Shown here: one piece after another, positions 46,148-49,397 of the stretch
Layout of the letters: the number at the start of each line of letters is the position of its first letter
How positions within the stretch are numbered: position 1 is the stretch's first letter
DNA from: a phage
Strand: one strand, 5' to 3'
DNA: 64,000 nt
Assembly: GCA_012813795.1 (NCBI GenBank)
Contig: GCA_012813795.1_4087.1
Position numbers and translations under genes: made by a program
Notes under the pieces: generated by a model
What the model saw: the letters and a program-made list of their open reading frames with translations, nothing else
What the model was told of the DNA's origin: nothing
Database searches by the model: none

Positions 46148-46698
46148 TATCCACCAGAACTCGTGTGAGCGGCACTTCTGGCTACTGAAGACCCAAACCC
46201 ATTGCGGGTGATTGTGGTCGTTGTAGGAGGTTTTGGAGCTAATGCGGAACTTGATACAGTACGTGTTGTACCTTTTGCAGTACTGCTACCGTAGGAGTTA
46301 CCACCAGCATCATAGAAGTTCCCTTTAGAGTTGTATAGTGGTTGACTAGCAAACCCATTACCACTACTATGGAACCCGCTCATGATTGGAATCCAAAAGA
46401 ATCCCGAACTATGTTGTTGACATTGATTACCAAAATCGCTAGAGCAATCACTCTGTGAACTATATTTTGGTGCTACCTTTTCCGATTCAGTGAGTGCTTT
46501 CTTATAATCATCATCACATTGTACAGGATTACTTCCTGACTTTTTACATTGGTCTGCGTTCTGATATACAGAAATATCTTCAGAGCGTTCACATCCTGTC
46601 ATAATAAAAGTACTACTAAGTGCCAAGGCAATCGCTCCGTACTTAATAGTTTTTACTTTACGAAATCGTTCACGAATGACATTAGAACTTCGTTTCAT
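46147..46698 (-). CDS. putative lipoprotein (Cys/Ser/Gly-rich mature part)
   Basis: 183 aa; N-terminal region GAIALALSSTFIMTGC has signal peptide and lipobox. Confidence 0.55.
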   Translation of the reverse strand: MKRSSNVIRERFRKVKTIKYGAIALALSSTFIMTGCERSEDISVYQNADQCKKSGSNPVQCDDDYKKALTESEKVAPKYSSQSDCSSDFGNQCQQHSSGFFWIPIMSGFHSSGNGFASQPLYNSKGNFYDAGGNSYGSSTAKGTTRTVSSSALAPKPPTTTTITRNGFGSSVARSAAHTSSGG

Positions 46699-47081
46699 TA
46701 TTTGTCAATCCCCATTCGTTTGGAACGCATATCTACGTGAATTGATTCCAGCTTCTTAACACCACGATATAGCCAATAGAACGCAGTAATAATAAGAGTA
46801 CCACACGGAATCAGAACACTAAAGAATGTTACGAATCCATAGAACGTTGCCCCATCATCACCATTCATGCCACCAAATATTACTTCAATAACAACAGAAG
46901 CTACGGCGAACATATAATATGTCATACCCATAACAACTGCTATTTGTCCAGCACTACTTTTTTCAGCACGACGAACCCAATTGAATACTGGATTAATACA
47001 GAAGTAGTATAGAAGTAACCAGACTGAACCTAAAGCGAACACTGCAATTTCAAAAATACAAAAGTAATCACGATAAGTCAT
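46698..47081 (-). CDS. small multi-pass membrane protein (cluster member 8)
   Basis: 127 aa, several hydrophobic segments; stop/start coupling with neighbours. Confidence 0.55.
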   Translation of the reverse strand: MTYRDYFCIFEIAVFALGSVWLLLYYFCINPVFNWVRRAEKSSAGQIAVVMGMTYYMFAVASVVIEVIFGGMNGDDGATFYGFVTFFSVLIPCGTLIITAFYWLYRGVKKLESIHVDMRSKRMGIDK

Positions 47082-47434
47082 TATTTCATCCTCTCACCTA
47101 AACGTTTGTGTAGTTTACATAATTTGTCAAAAATGGTCAACGACATACATACAGTAAATCCAATACAGGCTAGTGTTAGACACATTAAATCTGCCACCAT
47201 ACCAGCTACAAGCAATGCACGAGCTTCAAGTAATAACCCAAATAGCATTGCAAAATAACCGAAATAGTATGCAACTGAAAAGAGTGTTATAGCATTACCA
47301 ATATAGTACACAATATTATCATACCAAGTACTGAATGGTTTCATGTGAAAGAATTTCATCACAAGTAGTACAGACAACATAAAGAATACCAGTGTACATA
47401 ACATGAATATAACTTGCCCAGCAGGAGAAAACAT
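47081..47434 (-). CDS. small multi-pass membrane protein (cluster member 7)
   Basis: 117 aa, hydrophobic. Confidence 0.55.
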   Translation of the reverse strand: MFSPAGQVIFMLCTLVFFMLSVLLVMKFFHMKPFSTWYDNIVYYIGNAITLFSVAYYFGYFAMLFGLLLEARALLVAGMVADLMCLTLACIGFTVCMSLTIFDKLCKLHKRLGERMK

Positions 47435-47436
47435 AA

Positions 47437-47820
47437 TTAACCTCGTTTCTTACGTTTAATGTTATTGTGAATTTCATAAAAGAAAGGAACAATAGCAGTA
47501 CAGATTAAATTATACATAAGAATAATCATGAACAATAACCCGAATATTGAAGAAAACACTAATCCAATAATGCACAGTACTGGTTCACCAATTGAAGTGA
47601 TTCCAATCCCGAATACGTATACAATCCATGTGAAGATAGTGGTTACTAAGCAAATGATATATCCAACATGGAAGAAGCACTTAGATTCGTAGTCGGATTC
47701 AATATCCTCATACACATCTTCGACGAACTTTACACAAAAGAACTTTCCAATGTATATTAATGCACCTATTGTTAGACATGCACTTAGGATATTAAGAATA
47801 ACATATATTGTTGTGTACAT
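47437..47820 (-). CDS. small multi-pass membrane protein (cluster member 6)
   Basis: 127 aa, hydrophobic, basic C-terminus. Confidence 0.55.
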   Translation of the reverse strand: MYTTIYVILNILSACLTIGALIYIGKFFCVKFVEDVYEDIESDYESKCFFHVGYIICLVTTIFTWIVYVFGIGITSIGEPVLCIIGLVFSSIFGLLFMIILMYNLICTAIVPFFYEIHNNIKRKKRG

Positions 47821-48140
47821 TATACCCTCTTATCTTTTTGTTTACGATGGAAATTTGATACCAAAGAACATAACTTTCCAATATAACTACAGAATGCTGC
47901 GAATACACACAGTCCTGCAAATAATGTACACAATGACATATTCAAATCATTATCAGGTGGATTGAATATAAGCAGTACTACCCATAATGTACTAAGCAAT
48001 GTAAAAGCTACATTACCAGCAGCAGCATTTTTACACTGCTTTGCATAGAAGTCAAATGGTTTTAGTGCAAAGAGAAAACCAATCCAGCAAACCCAAAAGT
48101 AGAATGCACTTACTGTGAAAAGAATCAATTCAATCTTCAT
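47820..48140 (-). CDS. small multi-pass membrane protein (cluster member 5)
   Basis: 106 aa, hydrophobic. Confidence 0.55.
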   Translation of the reverse strand: MKIELILFTVSAFYFWVCWIGFLFALKPFDFYAKQCKNAAAGNVAFTLLSTLWVVLLIFNPPDNDLNMSLCTLFAGLCVFAAFCSYIGKLCSLVSNFHRKQKDKRV

Positions 48141-48141
48141 A

Positions 48142-48477
48142 TTATTTCCTGTGATCTGGGATAGAGTTTCGTAGTTTAACTACAAATGGATACAAAAGCA
48201 CACCAATGTAAACAATAGTCGATATCCAGTAAAAACCCAAGGAAATGATTTCACCATTAGAACGTTTACCAGTACTGATAATTCCGTAATGGATGAATGG
48301 CATCACAGTCGATGACCAAAACCAGCAGTGAAGTTTAACACTCATCAGATGATTATCGATGAATTCACCGATTGGACGTTTAAAGAACCACATCAAGAAA
48401 TAAAACCCAGCGGAAATGATGTAGTAAATTGTACTTACTTTCAAGTACCACGGTAGTAAACTGATAAAGTACTCCAT
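48142..48477 (-). CDS. small multi-pass membrane protein (cluster member 4)
   Basis: Trimmed to Met MEYFISLLPWYLK at 48477 so that it abuts the upstream gene (TAATG overlap). Confidence 0.5.
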   Translation of the reverse strand: MEYFISLLPWYLKVSTIYYIISAGFYFLMWFFKRPIGEFIDNHLMSVKLHCWFWSSTVMPFIHYGIISTGKRSNGEIISLGFYWISTIVYIGVLLYPFVVKLRNSIPDHRK

Positions 48478-48830
48478 TATGCCTCCGGTATTTTGTTGCG
48501 TGCAAATAACATTTTTTTCCACACAATATTCGATAGAATTACAATTAGTGTTGGAATACATATCATAACAAAGGTACATAGCATAAAGTTAAGATTATCA
48601 CCGTGACCTAATCCTATGACTGTAAGAACTGCACCCATAGTATACGTGATTGAGGTTGCAATTACAACACTTTCATAGTACTCTGAATTATTAATCTTGT
48701 AGTAAATTGGACGTTTGAAATACCATCCAATGAAGTTTAGAACCATCAAAAACGGATATAAGATAATGAGTACATAGTTCAGTGTACTAGCAATATCACT
48801 GGTTGTCAACCATTTAATAACCTCTTGCAT
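48477..48830 (-). CDS. small multi-pass membrane protein (cluster member 3)
   Basis: 117 aa, hydrophobic. Confidence 0.55.
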   Translation of the reverse strand: MQEVIKWLTTSDIASTLNYVLIILYPFLMVLNFIGWYFKRPIYYKINNSEYYESVVIATSITYTMGAVLTVIGLGHGDNLNFMLCTFVMICIPTLIVILSNIVWKKMLFARNKIPEA

Positions 48831-49192
48831 TAGTAATCTCCACGAATTTTATCTCGACCTACAATGAGTAGACGGATTAAGTATATTGCAATCCAAATAA
48901 TTAGACCCAAGAACACAACGTATTGTGTGATTGATTCTAAGTGTGTATTTGTACAATATATAACATGTGTCAGAATTCCAAATAGAATAAATCCACCTTG
49001 AATGATACTATACATAACAAAAGCACTGTTATCATATGAGTATAGTTCAAATACTACTTTCTTTTTAAAATACCAAAGTACTACAACTAGTAAATGATAA
49101 AATAAAAAACCAATCATGTAAATCAAAGTAATACTAAGCATCGTATCAGATGAAAAAAAATCAACCATATAAACCTCATCGTGTAAAGTCAA
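48830..49192 (-). CDS. small multi-pass membrane protein (cluster member 2)
   Basis: 120 aa, hydrophobic. Confidence 0.55.
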   Translation of the reverse strand: MTLHDEVYMVDFFSSDTMLSITLIYMIGFLFYHLLVVVLWYFKKKVVFELYSYDNSAFVMYSIIQGGFILFGILTHVIYCTNTHLESITQYVVFLGLIIWIAIYLIRLLIVGRDKIRGDY

Positions 49193-49397
49193 TGAATGTT
49201 GATAGTAGTACCATGTATACAGACACTACAGTAATTAAAACAATAATTTTTAAACCCAGTGGTGCTTCTTGAGGATTATACTCCTTTTCAGTATCAATAT
49301 CAAGTGTATGAAACCATCTATAAACTTTAACTAAAACGACAATCATGTTAATACATGAATATAATAACATGACCTTATCGATGTTATGTGTTATCAA
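49176..49397 (-). CDS. small membrane protein (cluster member 1)
   Basis: 73 aa, hydrophobic. Confidence 0.5.
   Translation of the reverse strand: MITHNIDKVMLLYSCINMIVVLVKVYRWFHTLDIDTEKEYNPQEAPLGLKIIVLITVVSVYMVLLSTFIDFTR

What the first reader, a model, noticed from the sequence alone, without database searches (positions are those of the whole stretch)
46698..49397. Operon of eight small polytopic membrane proteins
Eight consecutive 73-145-aa hydrophobic ORFs with overlapping stop/start codons sit between a lipoprotein gene and an ATPase gene. T4-type phages use small membrane proteins for superinfection exclusion and lysis control, but eight in tandem is unusual; they could be a diversified exclusion or immunity set, or holin/antiholin-like paralogues.
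Basis: partly seen in the sequence, partly recalled or inferred. Interest (0 to 1): 0.55.

Follow-up and report, generated by a model that had tools for sequence, protein, structure and literature searches.

The report
Jumbo-phage early operon of paralogous membrane proteins
Seven real, related three-helix inner-membrane protein genes sit in one early-type operon that all RaK2-like giant phages share; nobody knows what they do, but they are ancient and swapped between phages gene by gene, so they most likely act at the host envelope early in infection rather than in lysis.

Summary
The window comes from an Asteriusvirus-type jumbo coliphage; its closest relative is phage A4. On the minus strand one transcription unit runs from a sigma70-type promoter (50226-50197) to a strong terminator (46145-46115). 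It encodes a T4 NrdC.10-like AAA ATPase, a lineage-specific 2-segment ORF, seven 106-127-aa genes, and a YgiB-like (DUF1190) lipoprotein. The "145-aa" and "120-aa" ORFs are mis-called starts; the real sizes are 111 and 112 aa.

- **The seven genes are real.** Each ATG has a Shine-Dalgarno site, dN/dS is 0.1-0.5, and there are 7 long ORFs against 0.1 in shuffles.
- **Topology.** All seven have three TM helices, N-out/C-in, with basic C-tails.
- **Relatedness.** They are ancient paralogues in two profile-linked groups, A-D (plus a ninth copy at 55339-55689) and E-G.
- **Distribution.** The family is confined to RaK2-like jumbo phages. The module of ATPase, 5-9 such genes and the lipoprotein recurs in Asteriusvirus, Alcyoneusvirus, Mimasvirus and Eneladusvirus.
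- **Divergence.** Alleles in near-identical phages differ as much as between genera (27-64% aa, dS saturated, while the ATPase is 98%). They are exchanged gene by gene.

Function is unknown. I favour an early envelope-conflict or superinfection-exclusion role (about 0.4). A hetero-oligomeric complex is the main rival. A holin role is disfavoured.

The parts
50197..50233 (-). Composite terminator-like hairpin with an embedded sigma70-type promoter (TTGACT-18-TGtTATAAT); it is the start of the operon
   Evidence: The promoter is conserved upstream of the ATPase gene in 8 phages, including Klebsiella phages. The same 33-nt cassette occurs 7 times on the minus strand of the window, with 0 expected by chance.
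49398..50168 (-). 256-aa P-loop/AAA ATPase, a homologue of T4 NrdC.10 (function unknown)
   Evidence: phrog_1250 at 1e-103. There are weak AAA/Orc-Cdc6/Hda-type hits. It is about 40% identical to nrdC.10 of T-even phages. No relative has a solved structure.
49176..49397 (-). Lineage-specific 64-73-aa ORF with two hydrophobic segments; not a member of the family. It contains an internal promoter-like site at 49303-49275
   Evidence: It is found only in phage A4, where the reading frame is kept. PBECO4, BF17 and JNE01 have a 59-67-nt spacer at this position instead.
48830..49168 (-). Gene A (112 aa), 3 TM, N-out/C-in
   Evidence: phrog_19454 at 5e-45. SD is GAGG. For topology. This is the only part of the operon that differs from phage A4: 40% aa identity, with the breakpoint at the A/B junction.
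48477..48830 (-). Gene B (117 aa), 3 TM; the hub of the A-D/U paralogue group
   Evidence: phrog_19046. hhalign gives B-C 98%, A-B 97%, B-D 90% and B-U 80%. The AF2 model has three long helices at pLDDT 68.
48142..48477 (-). Gene C (111 aa), 3 TM; carries the conserved FYFLMWFFKRP motif
   Evidence: phrog_27396 at 1e-44. It is found in 45 phage records, all Escherichia, Salmonella or Klebsiella jumbo phages.
47820..48140 (-). Gene D (106 aa), 3 TM
   Evidence: phrog_33258.
47437..47820 (-). Gene E (127 aa), 3 TM; C-terminal tail KRKKRG
   Evidence: phrog_26405. hhalign gives E-F 99% and E-G 95%.
47081..47434 (-). Gene F (117 aa), 3 TM
   Evidence: No PHROG match. Orthologues are present in PBECO4, BF17, JNE01 and L011. 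dN/dS is 0.38-0.52.
46698..47081 (-). Gene G (127 aa), 3 TM
   Evidence: phrog_27618 at 2.5e-30; alignment A1.
46147..46698 (-). 183-aa YgiB-like (DUF1190) lipoprotein; its start overlaps the stop of G
   Evidence: Pfam DUF1190 at 5e-31. NCBIfam PRK11653 at 9e-45. The same gene ends the module in RaK2, Muenster, L011, GAP32 and BF. The lipobox ...MTGC is read directly from the sequence.
46115..46145 (-). Intrinsic terminator (13-bp stem followed by a T-run); the end of the operon
55339..55689 (-). Ninth family member (U type, 116 aa), in a separate unit upstream
   Evidence: The U HMM scores 5e-21, and the B, A and H HMMs also hit it. PBECO4 has three tandem copies at the equivalent place.

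Best explanation
Shown: this is a conserved operon of RaK2-like jumbo phages. A host-type (sigma70) promoter drives an NrdC.10-like AAA ATPase. Behind it comes a translationally coupled tandem array of anciently duplicated three-helix inner-membrane proteins. Each has its N-terminus and TM2-TM3 loop in the periplasm. Each has a conserved juxtamembrane motif ([WG]-x-[FY]-F-[KCH]-x-x-P) and a basic C-tail in the cytoplasm. The operon ends with a YgiB-like lipoprotein. Inferred: host RNA polymerase makes these proteins in the first minutes of infection and they insert into the inner membrane. There they act largely as individual, homotypic units that alter the envelope in the phage's favour. The most likely effect is to block genome entry by superinfecting phages, as T4 Imm and Sp do. 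Neutralising membrane-associated host factors is a second possibility. Specificity would lie in the variable TM2-loop-TM3 hairpin, and the conserved cytoplasmic parts would provide a common anchoring or partner-binding function. Deeply diverged alleles are kept in the population and exchanged gene by gene through recombination. The confidence given (0.4) is for the inferred mechanism; the descriptive part is about 0.9.
For: - **Real genes.** Each ATG has an SD, dN/dS is 0.1-0.5, and the ORF count far exceeds shuffles.
- **Topology.** There are 6-10 K/R in loop 1 plus the C-tail, against 0-1 in the N-terminus plus loop 2, for six of the seven proteins. TMHMM notes in the Muenster record say '3 TMDs; N-out, C-in'. 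AF2 gives three helices.
- **Early class.** The perfect extended -10/-35 promoter is conserved in 8 phages despite divergence of the flanks. The same cassette heads 7 units of the leftward cluster. The operon has no TATAAATA late motif. In the RaK2-like phage CBB, RpoD-like promoters mark the presumed early host-takeover region (PMC5259590).
- **Not virion proteins.** The orthologues gp011c-gp018c are absent from the phAPEC6 virion proteome (PMC7247149).
- **Conflict-like signature.** The window and PBECO4 share 27-64% aa identity with saturated dS, while the adjacent ATPase is 98% identical with dS 0.24. There are 5-9 allele types per position in 17 loci.
- **Units behave independently.** A single gene is swapped between the window and A4, with the breakpoint at the gene junction. 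F and G are swapped in the BF17 lineage. Single members are duplicated or lost (A, B, D, F).
- **Where the variation lies.** The TM2-loop2-TM3 region is the least conserved (0.20-0.25) and TM1, loop 1 and the C-tail the most (0.34-0.37).
Against: - There is no sequence or profile similarity to Imm, Sp, Sie or any characterised exclusion protein.
- No expression or phenotype data exist.
- dN/dS is below 1 everywhere that could be measured, so positive selection is not shown. The deep divergence reflects old alleles moved by recombination rather than demonstrated adaptive change.
- Each paralogue type, and largely its order (B-C-D-E-F-G), is retained across Asteriusvirus, the metagenomic lineage L011 and, apart from F, Alcyoneusvirus. 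The genes are also translationally coupled. Both features suit fixed subunits of one complex better than interchangeable weapons.
- Conservation of the whole module across four genera suggests a core-like role in infection.
- The regional conservation difference is modest.
Confidence: 0.4

Rival explanations
1. The paralogues are subunits of one hetero-oligomeric inner-membrane complex, for example a channel, a transporter or a membrane platform. This complex works with the co-transcribed AAA ATPase on the cytoplasmic side and the YgiB-like lipoprotein on the periplasmic side.
For: - The paralogue types are retained in conserved order across genera.
- One-nucleotide stop/start overlaps imply coupled, near-equimolar translation.
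- Cytoplasmic motifs conserved in all paralogues could bind a common partner.
- ATPase-array-lipoprotein synteny is kept in four genera and two metagenomic lineages.
- The genes are under purifying selection.
Against: - Membership is flexible. Array size is 5-9. A is absent in L011 and F is absent in RaK2. A, B or D is duplicated in single lineages, and the order is scrambled in L012.
- Single genes are replaced by alleles 40% identical while their neighbours stay 95-100% identical. This is hard to reconcile with co-adapted subunits.
- NrdC.10 homologues occur in more than 1,200 T4-like genomes, and the T6 locus examined has no such array next to its nrdC.10 gene.
- PBECO4-type and JNE01-type phages lack the lipoprotein.
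Confidence: 0.25
2. The proteins are holin, antiholin or pinholin-type lysis-timing proteins.
For: - Their size (about 105-127 aa), three TM helices, N-out/C-in topology and highly basic C-terminal tail match class I holins such as lambda S105 (own knowledge of holin classes).
- RaK2-like phages have a predicted SAR-type endolysin, and the CBB paper describes no holin (PMC5259590).
Against: - The promoter is a conserved sigma70-type promoter of the same class as the other units of the presumed early cluster, and there is no late motif.
- No endolysin or spanin gene lies in or next to the operon in any of the loci examined.
- No holin family in Pfam or PHROGs is matched.
- Seven to nine paralogues, none with a dual-start motif, would be unprecedented for a lysis cassette.
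Confidence: 0.07
3. The operon is an envelope-maintenance module. The membrane proteins and the YgiB-like lipoprotein keep the host envelope intact and energised during the long infection cycle of a 350-kb phage, with no role in conflict. YgiB itself is a host protein of the Cpx envelope-stress regulon.
For: - The lipoprotein is a close homologue of host YgiB. ygiB expression depends on Cpx, and its loss causes growth defects under stress in Citrobacter (bioRxiv 10.1101/2022.08.05.503015).
- DUF1190 genes occur in 135 large virulent enterobacterial phages.
- The module is conserved across the clade.
Against: - A housekeeping role does not explain why deeply divergent alleles coexist in phages that are otherwise about 95% identical.
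- The lipoprotein is dispensable in most Asteriusviruses.
- The function of YgiB itself is unknown.
Confidence: 0.15
4. The ORFs are chance or decaying reading frames with no function.
For: No expression data exist. One orthologue (B in Salmonella phage SD-15_S21) appears truncated.
Against: - There are 7 ORFs against 0.1 expected.
- Every start has an SD.
- dN/dS is 0.1-0.5 with saturated dS.
- Orthologues are kept across genera.
Confidence: 0.01

Closest known systems
Unnamed 'putative membrane protein' arrays annotated in RaK2-like phage genomes (GAP32_522-527; CPT_Muenster_554-561; PBECO4 gp298-303; PHROGs 19454, 19046, 27396, 33258, 26405, 27618)
   Same: These are the same genes or their orthologues, in the same position behind the NrdC.10-like ATPase, and with the same 3-TM prediction noted by the annotators.
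   Different: They are only labelled, as hypothetical or putative membrane proteins. None of the papers I could search describes the paralogy, the conserved module or the allelic structure.
T4 Imm and Sp superinfection-exclusion proteins (own knowledge: Lu and Henning)
   Same: They are small inner-membrane proteins made early by a large virulent myovirus, and they act at the envelope.
   Different: There is no sequence similarity (no Pfam or PHROG match). Imm and Sp are single genes with one or two TM segments, not a 7-9-member paralogous array. No exclusion phenotype has been tested here.
Class I holins (lambda S105 type)
   Same: About 105-127 aa, three TM helices, N-out/C-in topology and a basic C-terminal tail.
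   Different: The promoter is early-type, there are no lysis-gene neighbours, no holin family is matched, there are many paralogues, and no dual start is evident.
Polymorphic superinfection-exclusion (sie) genes at a fixed locus of lactococcal prophages (own knowledge: Mahony et al. 2008)
   Same: Small membrane proteins occupy a conserved genomic slot, and very divergent alleles occur in closely related phages.
   Different: Those are temperate phages of Gram-positive hosts with one gene per locus, and the proteins are unrelated in sequence.
E. coli YgiB (DUF1190) and T4 NrdC.10, which match the flanking genes
   Same: The operon's last gene matches the YgiB equivalog model at 9e-45 (below that model's curated cutoff) and passes the Pfam DUF1190 threshold. 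Its first gene is about 40% identical to NrdC.10 of T-even phages.
   Different: Neither has a known function. In the T-even locus examined (T6), NrdC.10 is not followed by a membrane-protein array. 'YgiB-like lipoprotein ... role unknown' has already been noted for phage Moon (PMC4319498).

Membership tests
RaK2-like-phage 3-TM array superfamily (defined here; PHROGs 19454/19046/27396/33258/26405/27618) | Sequence membership of each of the seven genes | tested here: met
   Six of the seven match a PHROG at 2e-13 to 1e-44. All seven match ortholog-group HMMs at 1e-47 or better, but those HMMs were built from alignments that include the window's own sequences, so these scores are partly circular. 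The independent evidence is BLASTP to the PBECO4 orthologues: F scores 2e-15, and the others range from 5e-12 (B) to 2e-58 (A).
RaK2-like-phage 3-TM array superfamily | Common descent of the paralogue types | tested here: met
   hhalign gives A-B 97%, B-C 98%, B-D 90%, B-U 80%, E-F 99%, E-G 95% and F-G 92%. The link between the two groups is weaker: C-E is 57% over the full length, and single proteins of L011, L012 and phage BF hit both B and E/F HMMs at 1e-6 to 1e-9.
RaK2-like-phage 3-TM array superfamily | Position in the module: sigma70-type promoter, NrdC.10-like ATPase, array, then DUF1190 lipoprotein (present in some lineages only) | tested here: met
Class I holins | Three TM helices, N-out/C-in, charged C-terminus | tested here: met
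   Positive-inside count; TMHMM notes in the Muenster record.
Class I holins | Sequence match to a described holin family | tested here: not met
   No holin model was hit in Pfam (E up to 1) or PHROGs.
Class I holins | Late expression and linkage to endolysin or spanin genes | tested here: not met
   The operon has a conserved sigma70-type promoter and no TATAAATA motif. No lysis gene lies in any of about 20 loci. Timing is inferred, not measured.
Class I holins | Membrane hole formation or lysis on induction | not testable with these tools
   Needs an experiment.
T4 Imm / Sp type superinfection exclusion | Sequence homology to Imm or Sp | tested here: not met
   No Pfam, PHROG or NCBIfam match of that kind.
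T4 Imm / Sp type superinfection exclusion | Small inner-membrane protein expressed early | tested here: inconclusive
   Membrane location and an early-type promoter are supported, but there are no transcript data.
T4 Imm / Sp type superinfection exclusion | Blocks DNA entry of secondary phages | not testable with these tools
   Needs plating and DNA-entry assays.
DUF350 (YjfL-like membrane proteins, neighbours of DUF1190 genes in bacteria) | Match to Pfam PF03994 above threshold across the G family | tested here: not met
   Only 1 of 6 G-family members hits it, at E = 0.008 and 16.6 bits against a cutoff of 26.
Known anti-phage defence proteins (PADLOC) | Match to any defence-system model | tested here: not met
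   No membrane protein gives a hit. The ATPase gives only P-loop-level hits at E of about 1e-3.

The most novel reading that the evidence does not exclude
The array is a clade-wide, serotype-like exclusion locus. Each paralogue blocks entry or early development of a different class of competing phage, and the anciently diverged alleles define mutual-exclusion groups among co-circulating jumbo phages. Gene-precise recombination at the conserved gene junctions would then re-assort exclusion specificities, in the way receptor-binding modules are re-assorted.
Probability: 0.15. Interest if true: 0.75.

Novelty: new variant of a known kind. Interest (0 to 1): 0.45.

Why it matters
Jumbo phages of the RaK2 group are being collected for therapy, yet more than 80% of their genes have no function. 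This work turns a run of 'hypothetical proteins' into a defined object. It is one superfamily, held in a conserved early operon, with a clear topology and a striking population structure of old alleles swapped gene by gene. If the array controls superinfection or envelope-level defence, it would bear on which jumbo phages can co-infect or be combined in cocktails. It would also add a multi-gene family to the few known exclusion mechanisms of virulent phages. If it is instead a hetero-oligomeric complex working with an NrdC.10-type ATPase and a YgiB-like lipoprotein, it would give a first functional handle on two widespread proteins of unknown function.

Tried and rejected
- **DUF350/YjfL link.** Gene G gave a weak Pfam DUF350 hit next to the DUF1190 gene, which mirrors yjfL-yjfM in E. 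coli. Only 1 of 6 family members reproduces it, below threshold, so I rejected it.
- **Solved structures.** PDB sequence searches for the ATPase and the lipoprotein found nothing significant.
- **Structure prediction.** The AF2 model of gene B from an 8-sequence alignment has pLDDT 68.5 and shows three helices. Foldseek against the PDB gave no match with E below 3. I did not use the model further.
- **Defence-system models.** PADLOC gave no hits for the membrane proteins.
- **NCBIfam.** It gave no hits for the membrane proteins.
- **T6 region around nrdC.10.** Family HMMs searched against the six-frame translation found nothing, so the array is not part of the T-even nrdC.10 neighbourhood examined.
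- **Literature.** Searches for Asteriusvirus, RaK2 with membrane proteins, nrdC.10 and YgiB found no description of the array and no transcriptome.
- **Exhaustive profile search of 1.84 billion representatives.** It returned only 9 proteins, all from the same phage clade, so no distant annotated relative exists to borrow a function from.
- **Positive selection.** Gene-wide dN/dS is below 1 for almost every pair. The exceptions (window against A4, genes C and D) rest on 5-6 substitutions and are not interpretable.

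
Full report
**What is there**

The window is from an Asteriusvirus-type jumbo coliphage. Region 46000-50300 is 97% identical to Escherichia phage A4 (ON286972). Thirty other Asteriusvirus records match only the ATPase part at the nucleotide level.

On the minus strand a single unit can be read. A terminator-like hairpin carries an embedded promoter, TTGACT-18-TGtTATAAT, at 50233-50197. Behind it lie, in order:
- a 256-aa AAA ATPase (49398-50168);
- a 64-73-aa ORF (49176-49397);
- seven genes that I call A to G: 48830-49168, 48477-48830, 48142-48477, 47820-48140, 47437-47820, 47081-47434 and 46698-47081;
- a 183-aa DUF1190 lipoprotein (46147-46698);
- a strong intrinsic terminator (46145-46115).

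Downstream, RCC1-repeat genes converge on the other strand. Their phAPEC6 counterparts are virion proteins.

**Check of the observation**

The eight ORFs exist as described. Two of the sizes come from mis-called starts. The 145-aa form overlaps its neighbour and has no SD, whereas the ATG at 48477 has GGAGG upstream and matches the 111-112-aa orthologues. The 120-aa TTG form is better read from the ATG at 49168.

Every one of the seven genes has an SD 5-9 nt before its ATG. Five junctions overlap by one nucleotide. Seven ORFs of at least 100 aa in 2.47 kb compare with a mean of 0.10 in 300 dinucleotide shuffles.

Pairwise dN/dS between orthologues is 0.1-0.5 wherever there are enough substitutions to measure. 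The adjacent ATPase gives 0.04-0.05. These are therefore protein-coding genes under purifying selection.

The 73-aa ORF is different. It has two hydrophobic segments, matches no family HMM and no PHROG, and is present only in A4. There its frame is preserved, with about as many synonymous as non-synonymous changes. Other Asteriusviruses have a 59-67-nt spacer at that place. I regard it as a plausible orphan gene that does not belong to the family.

**Topology**

Each of A to G has three hydrophobic segments, although TM2 of C is weaker. Six of the seven carry 6-10 Lys/Arg in loop 1 plus the C-tail and only 0-1 in the N-terminus plus loop 2. This gives N-out/C-in.

The curators of phage Muenster recorded '3 TMDs; N-out, C-in' by TMHMM for five of the eight array proteins. 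The GAP32 curators recorded '3 transmembrane domains' by TMHMM and Phobius. An AF2 model of B (pLDDT 68.5) shows three long helices.

**Paralogy**

BLAST clustering of the arrays from eight phages gives seven ortholog groups in conserved order, plus types H and U. Profile-profile comparison joins them as follows:

| Pair | hhalign probability |
|---|---|
| A-B | 97% |
| B-C | 98% |
| B-D | 90% |
| B-U | 80% |
| E-F | 99% |
| E-G | 95% |
| F-G | 92% |

Most of these alignments cover the full length. The two groups are bridged more weakly. C-E reaches 57% over the full length. Individual proteins of metagenomic and Eneladusvirus arrays hit both B and E/F HMMs.

All members share two motifs:
- an aromatic-basic motif at the cytoplasmic end of TM1 (W-[YF]-F-K-R-P, G-K-F-F-C-V, Y-F-C-x-x-P);
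- an [HR]-x-x-[IKL]-[KRP] basic tail after TM3.

A ninth member of U type lies at 55339-55689 in the window. PBECO4 has three copies there.

**Distribution**

Gene C is found in 45 phage records, all of them Escherichia, Salmonella or Klebsiella jumbo phages. Word-indexed searches of 5.8 billion proteins returned only proteins that are unnamed or labelled hypothetical. Those with a named source come from these jumbo phages or from E. coli assemblies.

An exhaustive HMMER search of 1.84 billion representatives with a profile of the A-D/U group returned nine proteins. The two most distant that I traced sit in metagenomic contigs with related synteny:
- L011 has denV, an HNH gene, the ATPase, B-C-D-E-F-G, DUF1190, and then convergent RCC1 genes.
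- L012 has the ATPase, a scrambled nine-member array and convergent RCC1 genes, without denV, HNH or DUF1190.

Starting from the lipoprotein, I found the same module in two further genera: GAP32 (Mimasvirus) and Serratia phage BF (Eneladusvirus). There the ATPase is followed by five or six 3-TM ORFs, an inserted soluble ORF of 254-266 aa, a one-TM ORF, and then DUF1190. These ORFs hit the B, D, E and H HMMs weakly, at 1e-5 to 5e-9 in a small local search. The module is therefore ancestral to the RaK2-like jumbo phages.

**Divergence pattern**

Between the window and PBECO4 the ATPase is 98% identical (dS 0.24). A to G are 63, 31, 64, 35, 36, 27 and 37% identical, with dS saturated. That is as far apart as the window is from Klebsiella phage RaK2, whose ATPase is 70% identical.

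At an 80% identity cut-off there are 5-9 allele types per position in 17 loci. The combinations re-assort:
- The window and A4 differ only in gene A (40% aa). The left breakpoint lies exactly at the A/B junction.
- The BF17 lineage differs from PBECO4 mainly in F and G (73% and 63%).
- ECO103 combines a 58%-divergent ATPase allele with a PBECO4-type array.
- Single members are duplicated or missing in some lineages.

The locus is thus a mosaic of old alleles exchanged gene by gene. It is not a site of demonstrable positive selection.

Within families, TM1, loop 1 and the C-tail are the best conserved regions, and the TM2-loop2-TM3 hairpin is the least conserved. The difference is modest.

**Expression class (inferred)**

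The promoter before the ATPase is conserved in all eight phages compared, including the Klebsiella phages, while the sequence around it diverges. The same 33-nt hairpin-promoter cassette occurs seven times in the window, all on the minus strand between 50.2 and 60.9 kb, with none expected by chance. The leftward cluster is therefore a series of short units of one promoter class, and the array operon is the last of them.

The operon has no T4-type late motif. For the related phage CBB, RpoD-like promoters were proposed to mark the early host-takeover region, and ATAAATA motifs the late genes (PMC5259590). The orthologues gp011c-gp018c are not among the 62 virion proteins of phAPEC6. Small hydrophobic proteins are, however, easily missed by mass spectrometry.

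**Flanking genes**

The ATPase is a homologue of T4 NrdC.10 (about 40% identity; it is present in more than 1,200 phage records). That protein has only an AAA motif and no known function. In T6 it is not followed by membrane proteins.

The lipoprotein matches the YgiB equivalog model at 9e-45 and 153 bits, which is below that model's curated cutoff of 223 bits. It passes the Pfam DUF1190 threshold. ygiB belongs to the Cpx envelope-stress regulon in Citrobacter and has no defined function. YgiB-like lipoproteins were noted in phage Moon as having an unknown role, and they occur in 135 phage records. In RaK2, L011, GAP32 and BF the residue after the lipid-modified Cys is Asp. By the +2 rule (own knowledge) this suggests retention in the inner membrane, next to the periplasmic faces of the array proteins. 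In the window that residue is Glu.

**Mechanism**

The following points are shown:
- an early-type operon;
- inner-membrane 3-TM proteins of common descent;
- conserved cytoplasmic motifs and a variable hairpin;
- ancient alleles re-assorted gene by gene;
- conservation across the clade.

From these I infer, with about 0.4 confidence, that the proteins are inserted into the inner membrane soon after infection and act mostly as separate units on the envelope. The most plausible effect is exclusion of superinfecting phages or neutralisation of membrane-associated host factors.

The main rival (0.25) is a hetero-oligomeric complex working with the ATPase and the lipoprotein. It is favoured by the conserved paralogue order, the translational coupling and the shared cytoplasmic motifs. 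It is weakened by flexible membership and by single-gene allele swaps.

An envelope-maintenance role (0.15) and a lysis-timing role (0.07) are less likely. The holin resemblance is limited to size, topology and the charged tail.

**Comparison and novelty**

The genes are already in GenBank as hypothetical or 'putative membrane' proteins, and six of the seven fall in PHROGs of unknown function. The literature available to me does not describe the superfamily, its module or its allelic structure.

It works like the small early membrane proteins of T-even phages, but it is not a member of any characterised family. I rate it a new variant of a known kind, with moderate interest (0.45). The descriptive result is solid and makes clear experiments possible. 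The function remains inferred.

Noticed in passing
window 50197-60920, minus strand (50197, 52411, 53140, 56248, 57874, 60531, 60888): A 33-nt cassette, GGGTTGACTTCGGTCAGCCCTTTTTGCTATAAT, is repeated seven times with 0-3 mismatches; none is expected by chance. It is a G+C-rich hairpin that reads as a terminator and has a sigma70-type -35/-10 promoter built into it. It divides the leftward gene cluster into short units of one promoter class.
   Followed up: partly
window 50236-52155 (-): A 639-aa protein is made of about eight protein-level repeats of about 65 aa (F[IL]KKAKEVHGDLYDYSKVEYIN...YGEF...P..HL.G) plus a C-terminal domain. The A4 orthologue is 565 aa, so the repeat number varies. Orthologues are annotated as DUF4379, endonuclease or 'exonuclease ABC C subunit'. 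The plus-strand ORFs at 50575-51330 are its antisense shadows.
   Followed up: partly
window 55339-55689 (-): A ninth member of the 3-TM family (U type) lies in a separate unit about 5 kb upstream. PBECO4 carries three tandem copies at the equivalent site.
   Followed up: partly
window 54220-54471, 61278-61652, 62125-62457, 62771-63013 (all -): These are further small hydrophobic minus-strand ORFs (80-124 aa). They do not match the family HMMs, and the three that were scanned (54220, 61278, 62125) match nothing in Pfam. The presumed early cluster is generally rich in small membrane proteins.
   Followed up: no
L001 6173-6391 (phage A4, A4_227), the equivalent of window 49176-49397: The GenBank record labels this 72-aa two-segment hydrophobic ORF 'endonuclease V'. 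That looks like an annotation error carried over from the nearby denV gene.
   Followed up: partly
L006 (phage ECO103 4-12-1) 1988-2761 and L007 (JNE01) 3474-4247: The NrdC.10-like ATPase also exists as two alleles within Asteriusvirus that are only 58-59% identical. They are combined independently with the array types, so the mosaic extends beyond the membrane genes. Homing-endonuclease genes (HNH, DUF4379-type) lie immediately upstream in most loci and may drive the exchange.
   Followed up: partly
L018 (Salmonella phage SD-15_S21) 4200-4424: Gene B of the array is annotated as a truncated 74-aa ORF. This could be a pseudogene or a sequencing error.
   Followed up: no
window 44632-45555 and 45567-46115 (+): RCC1-repeat genes converge on the operon's terminator. 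Their phAPEC6 counterparts (gp003-gp010) are virion-associated, so an early-type unit abuts late structural genes here.
   Followed up: no
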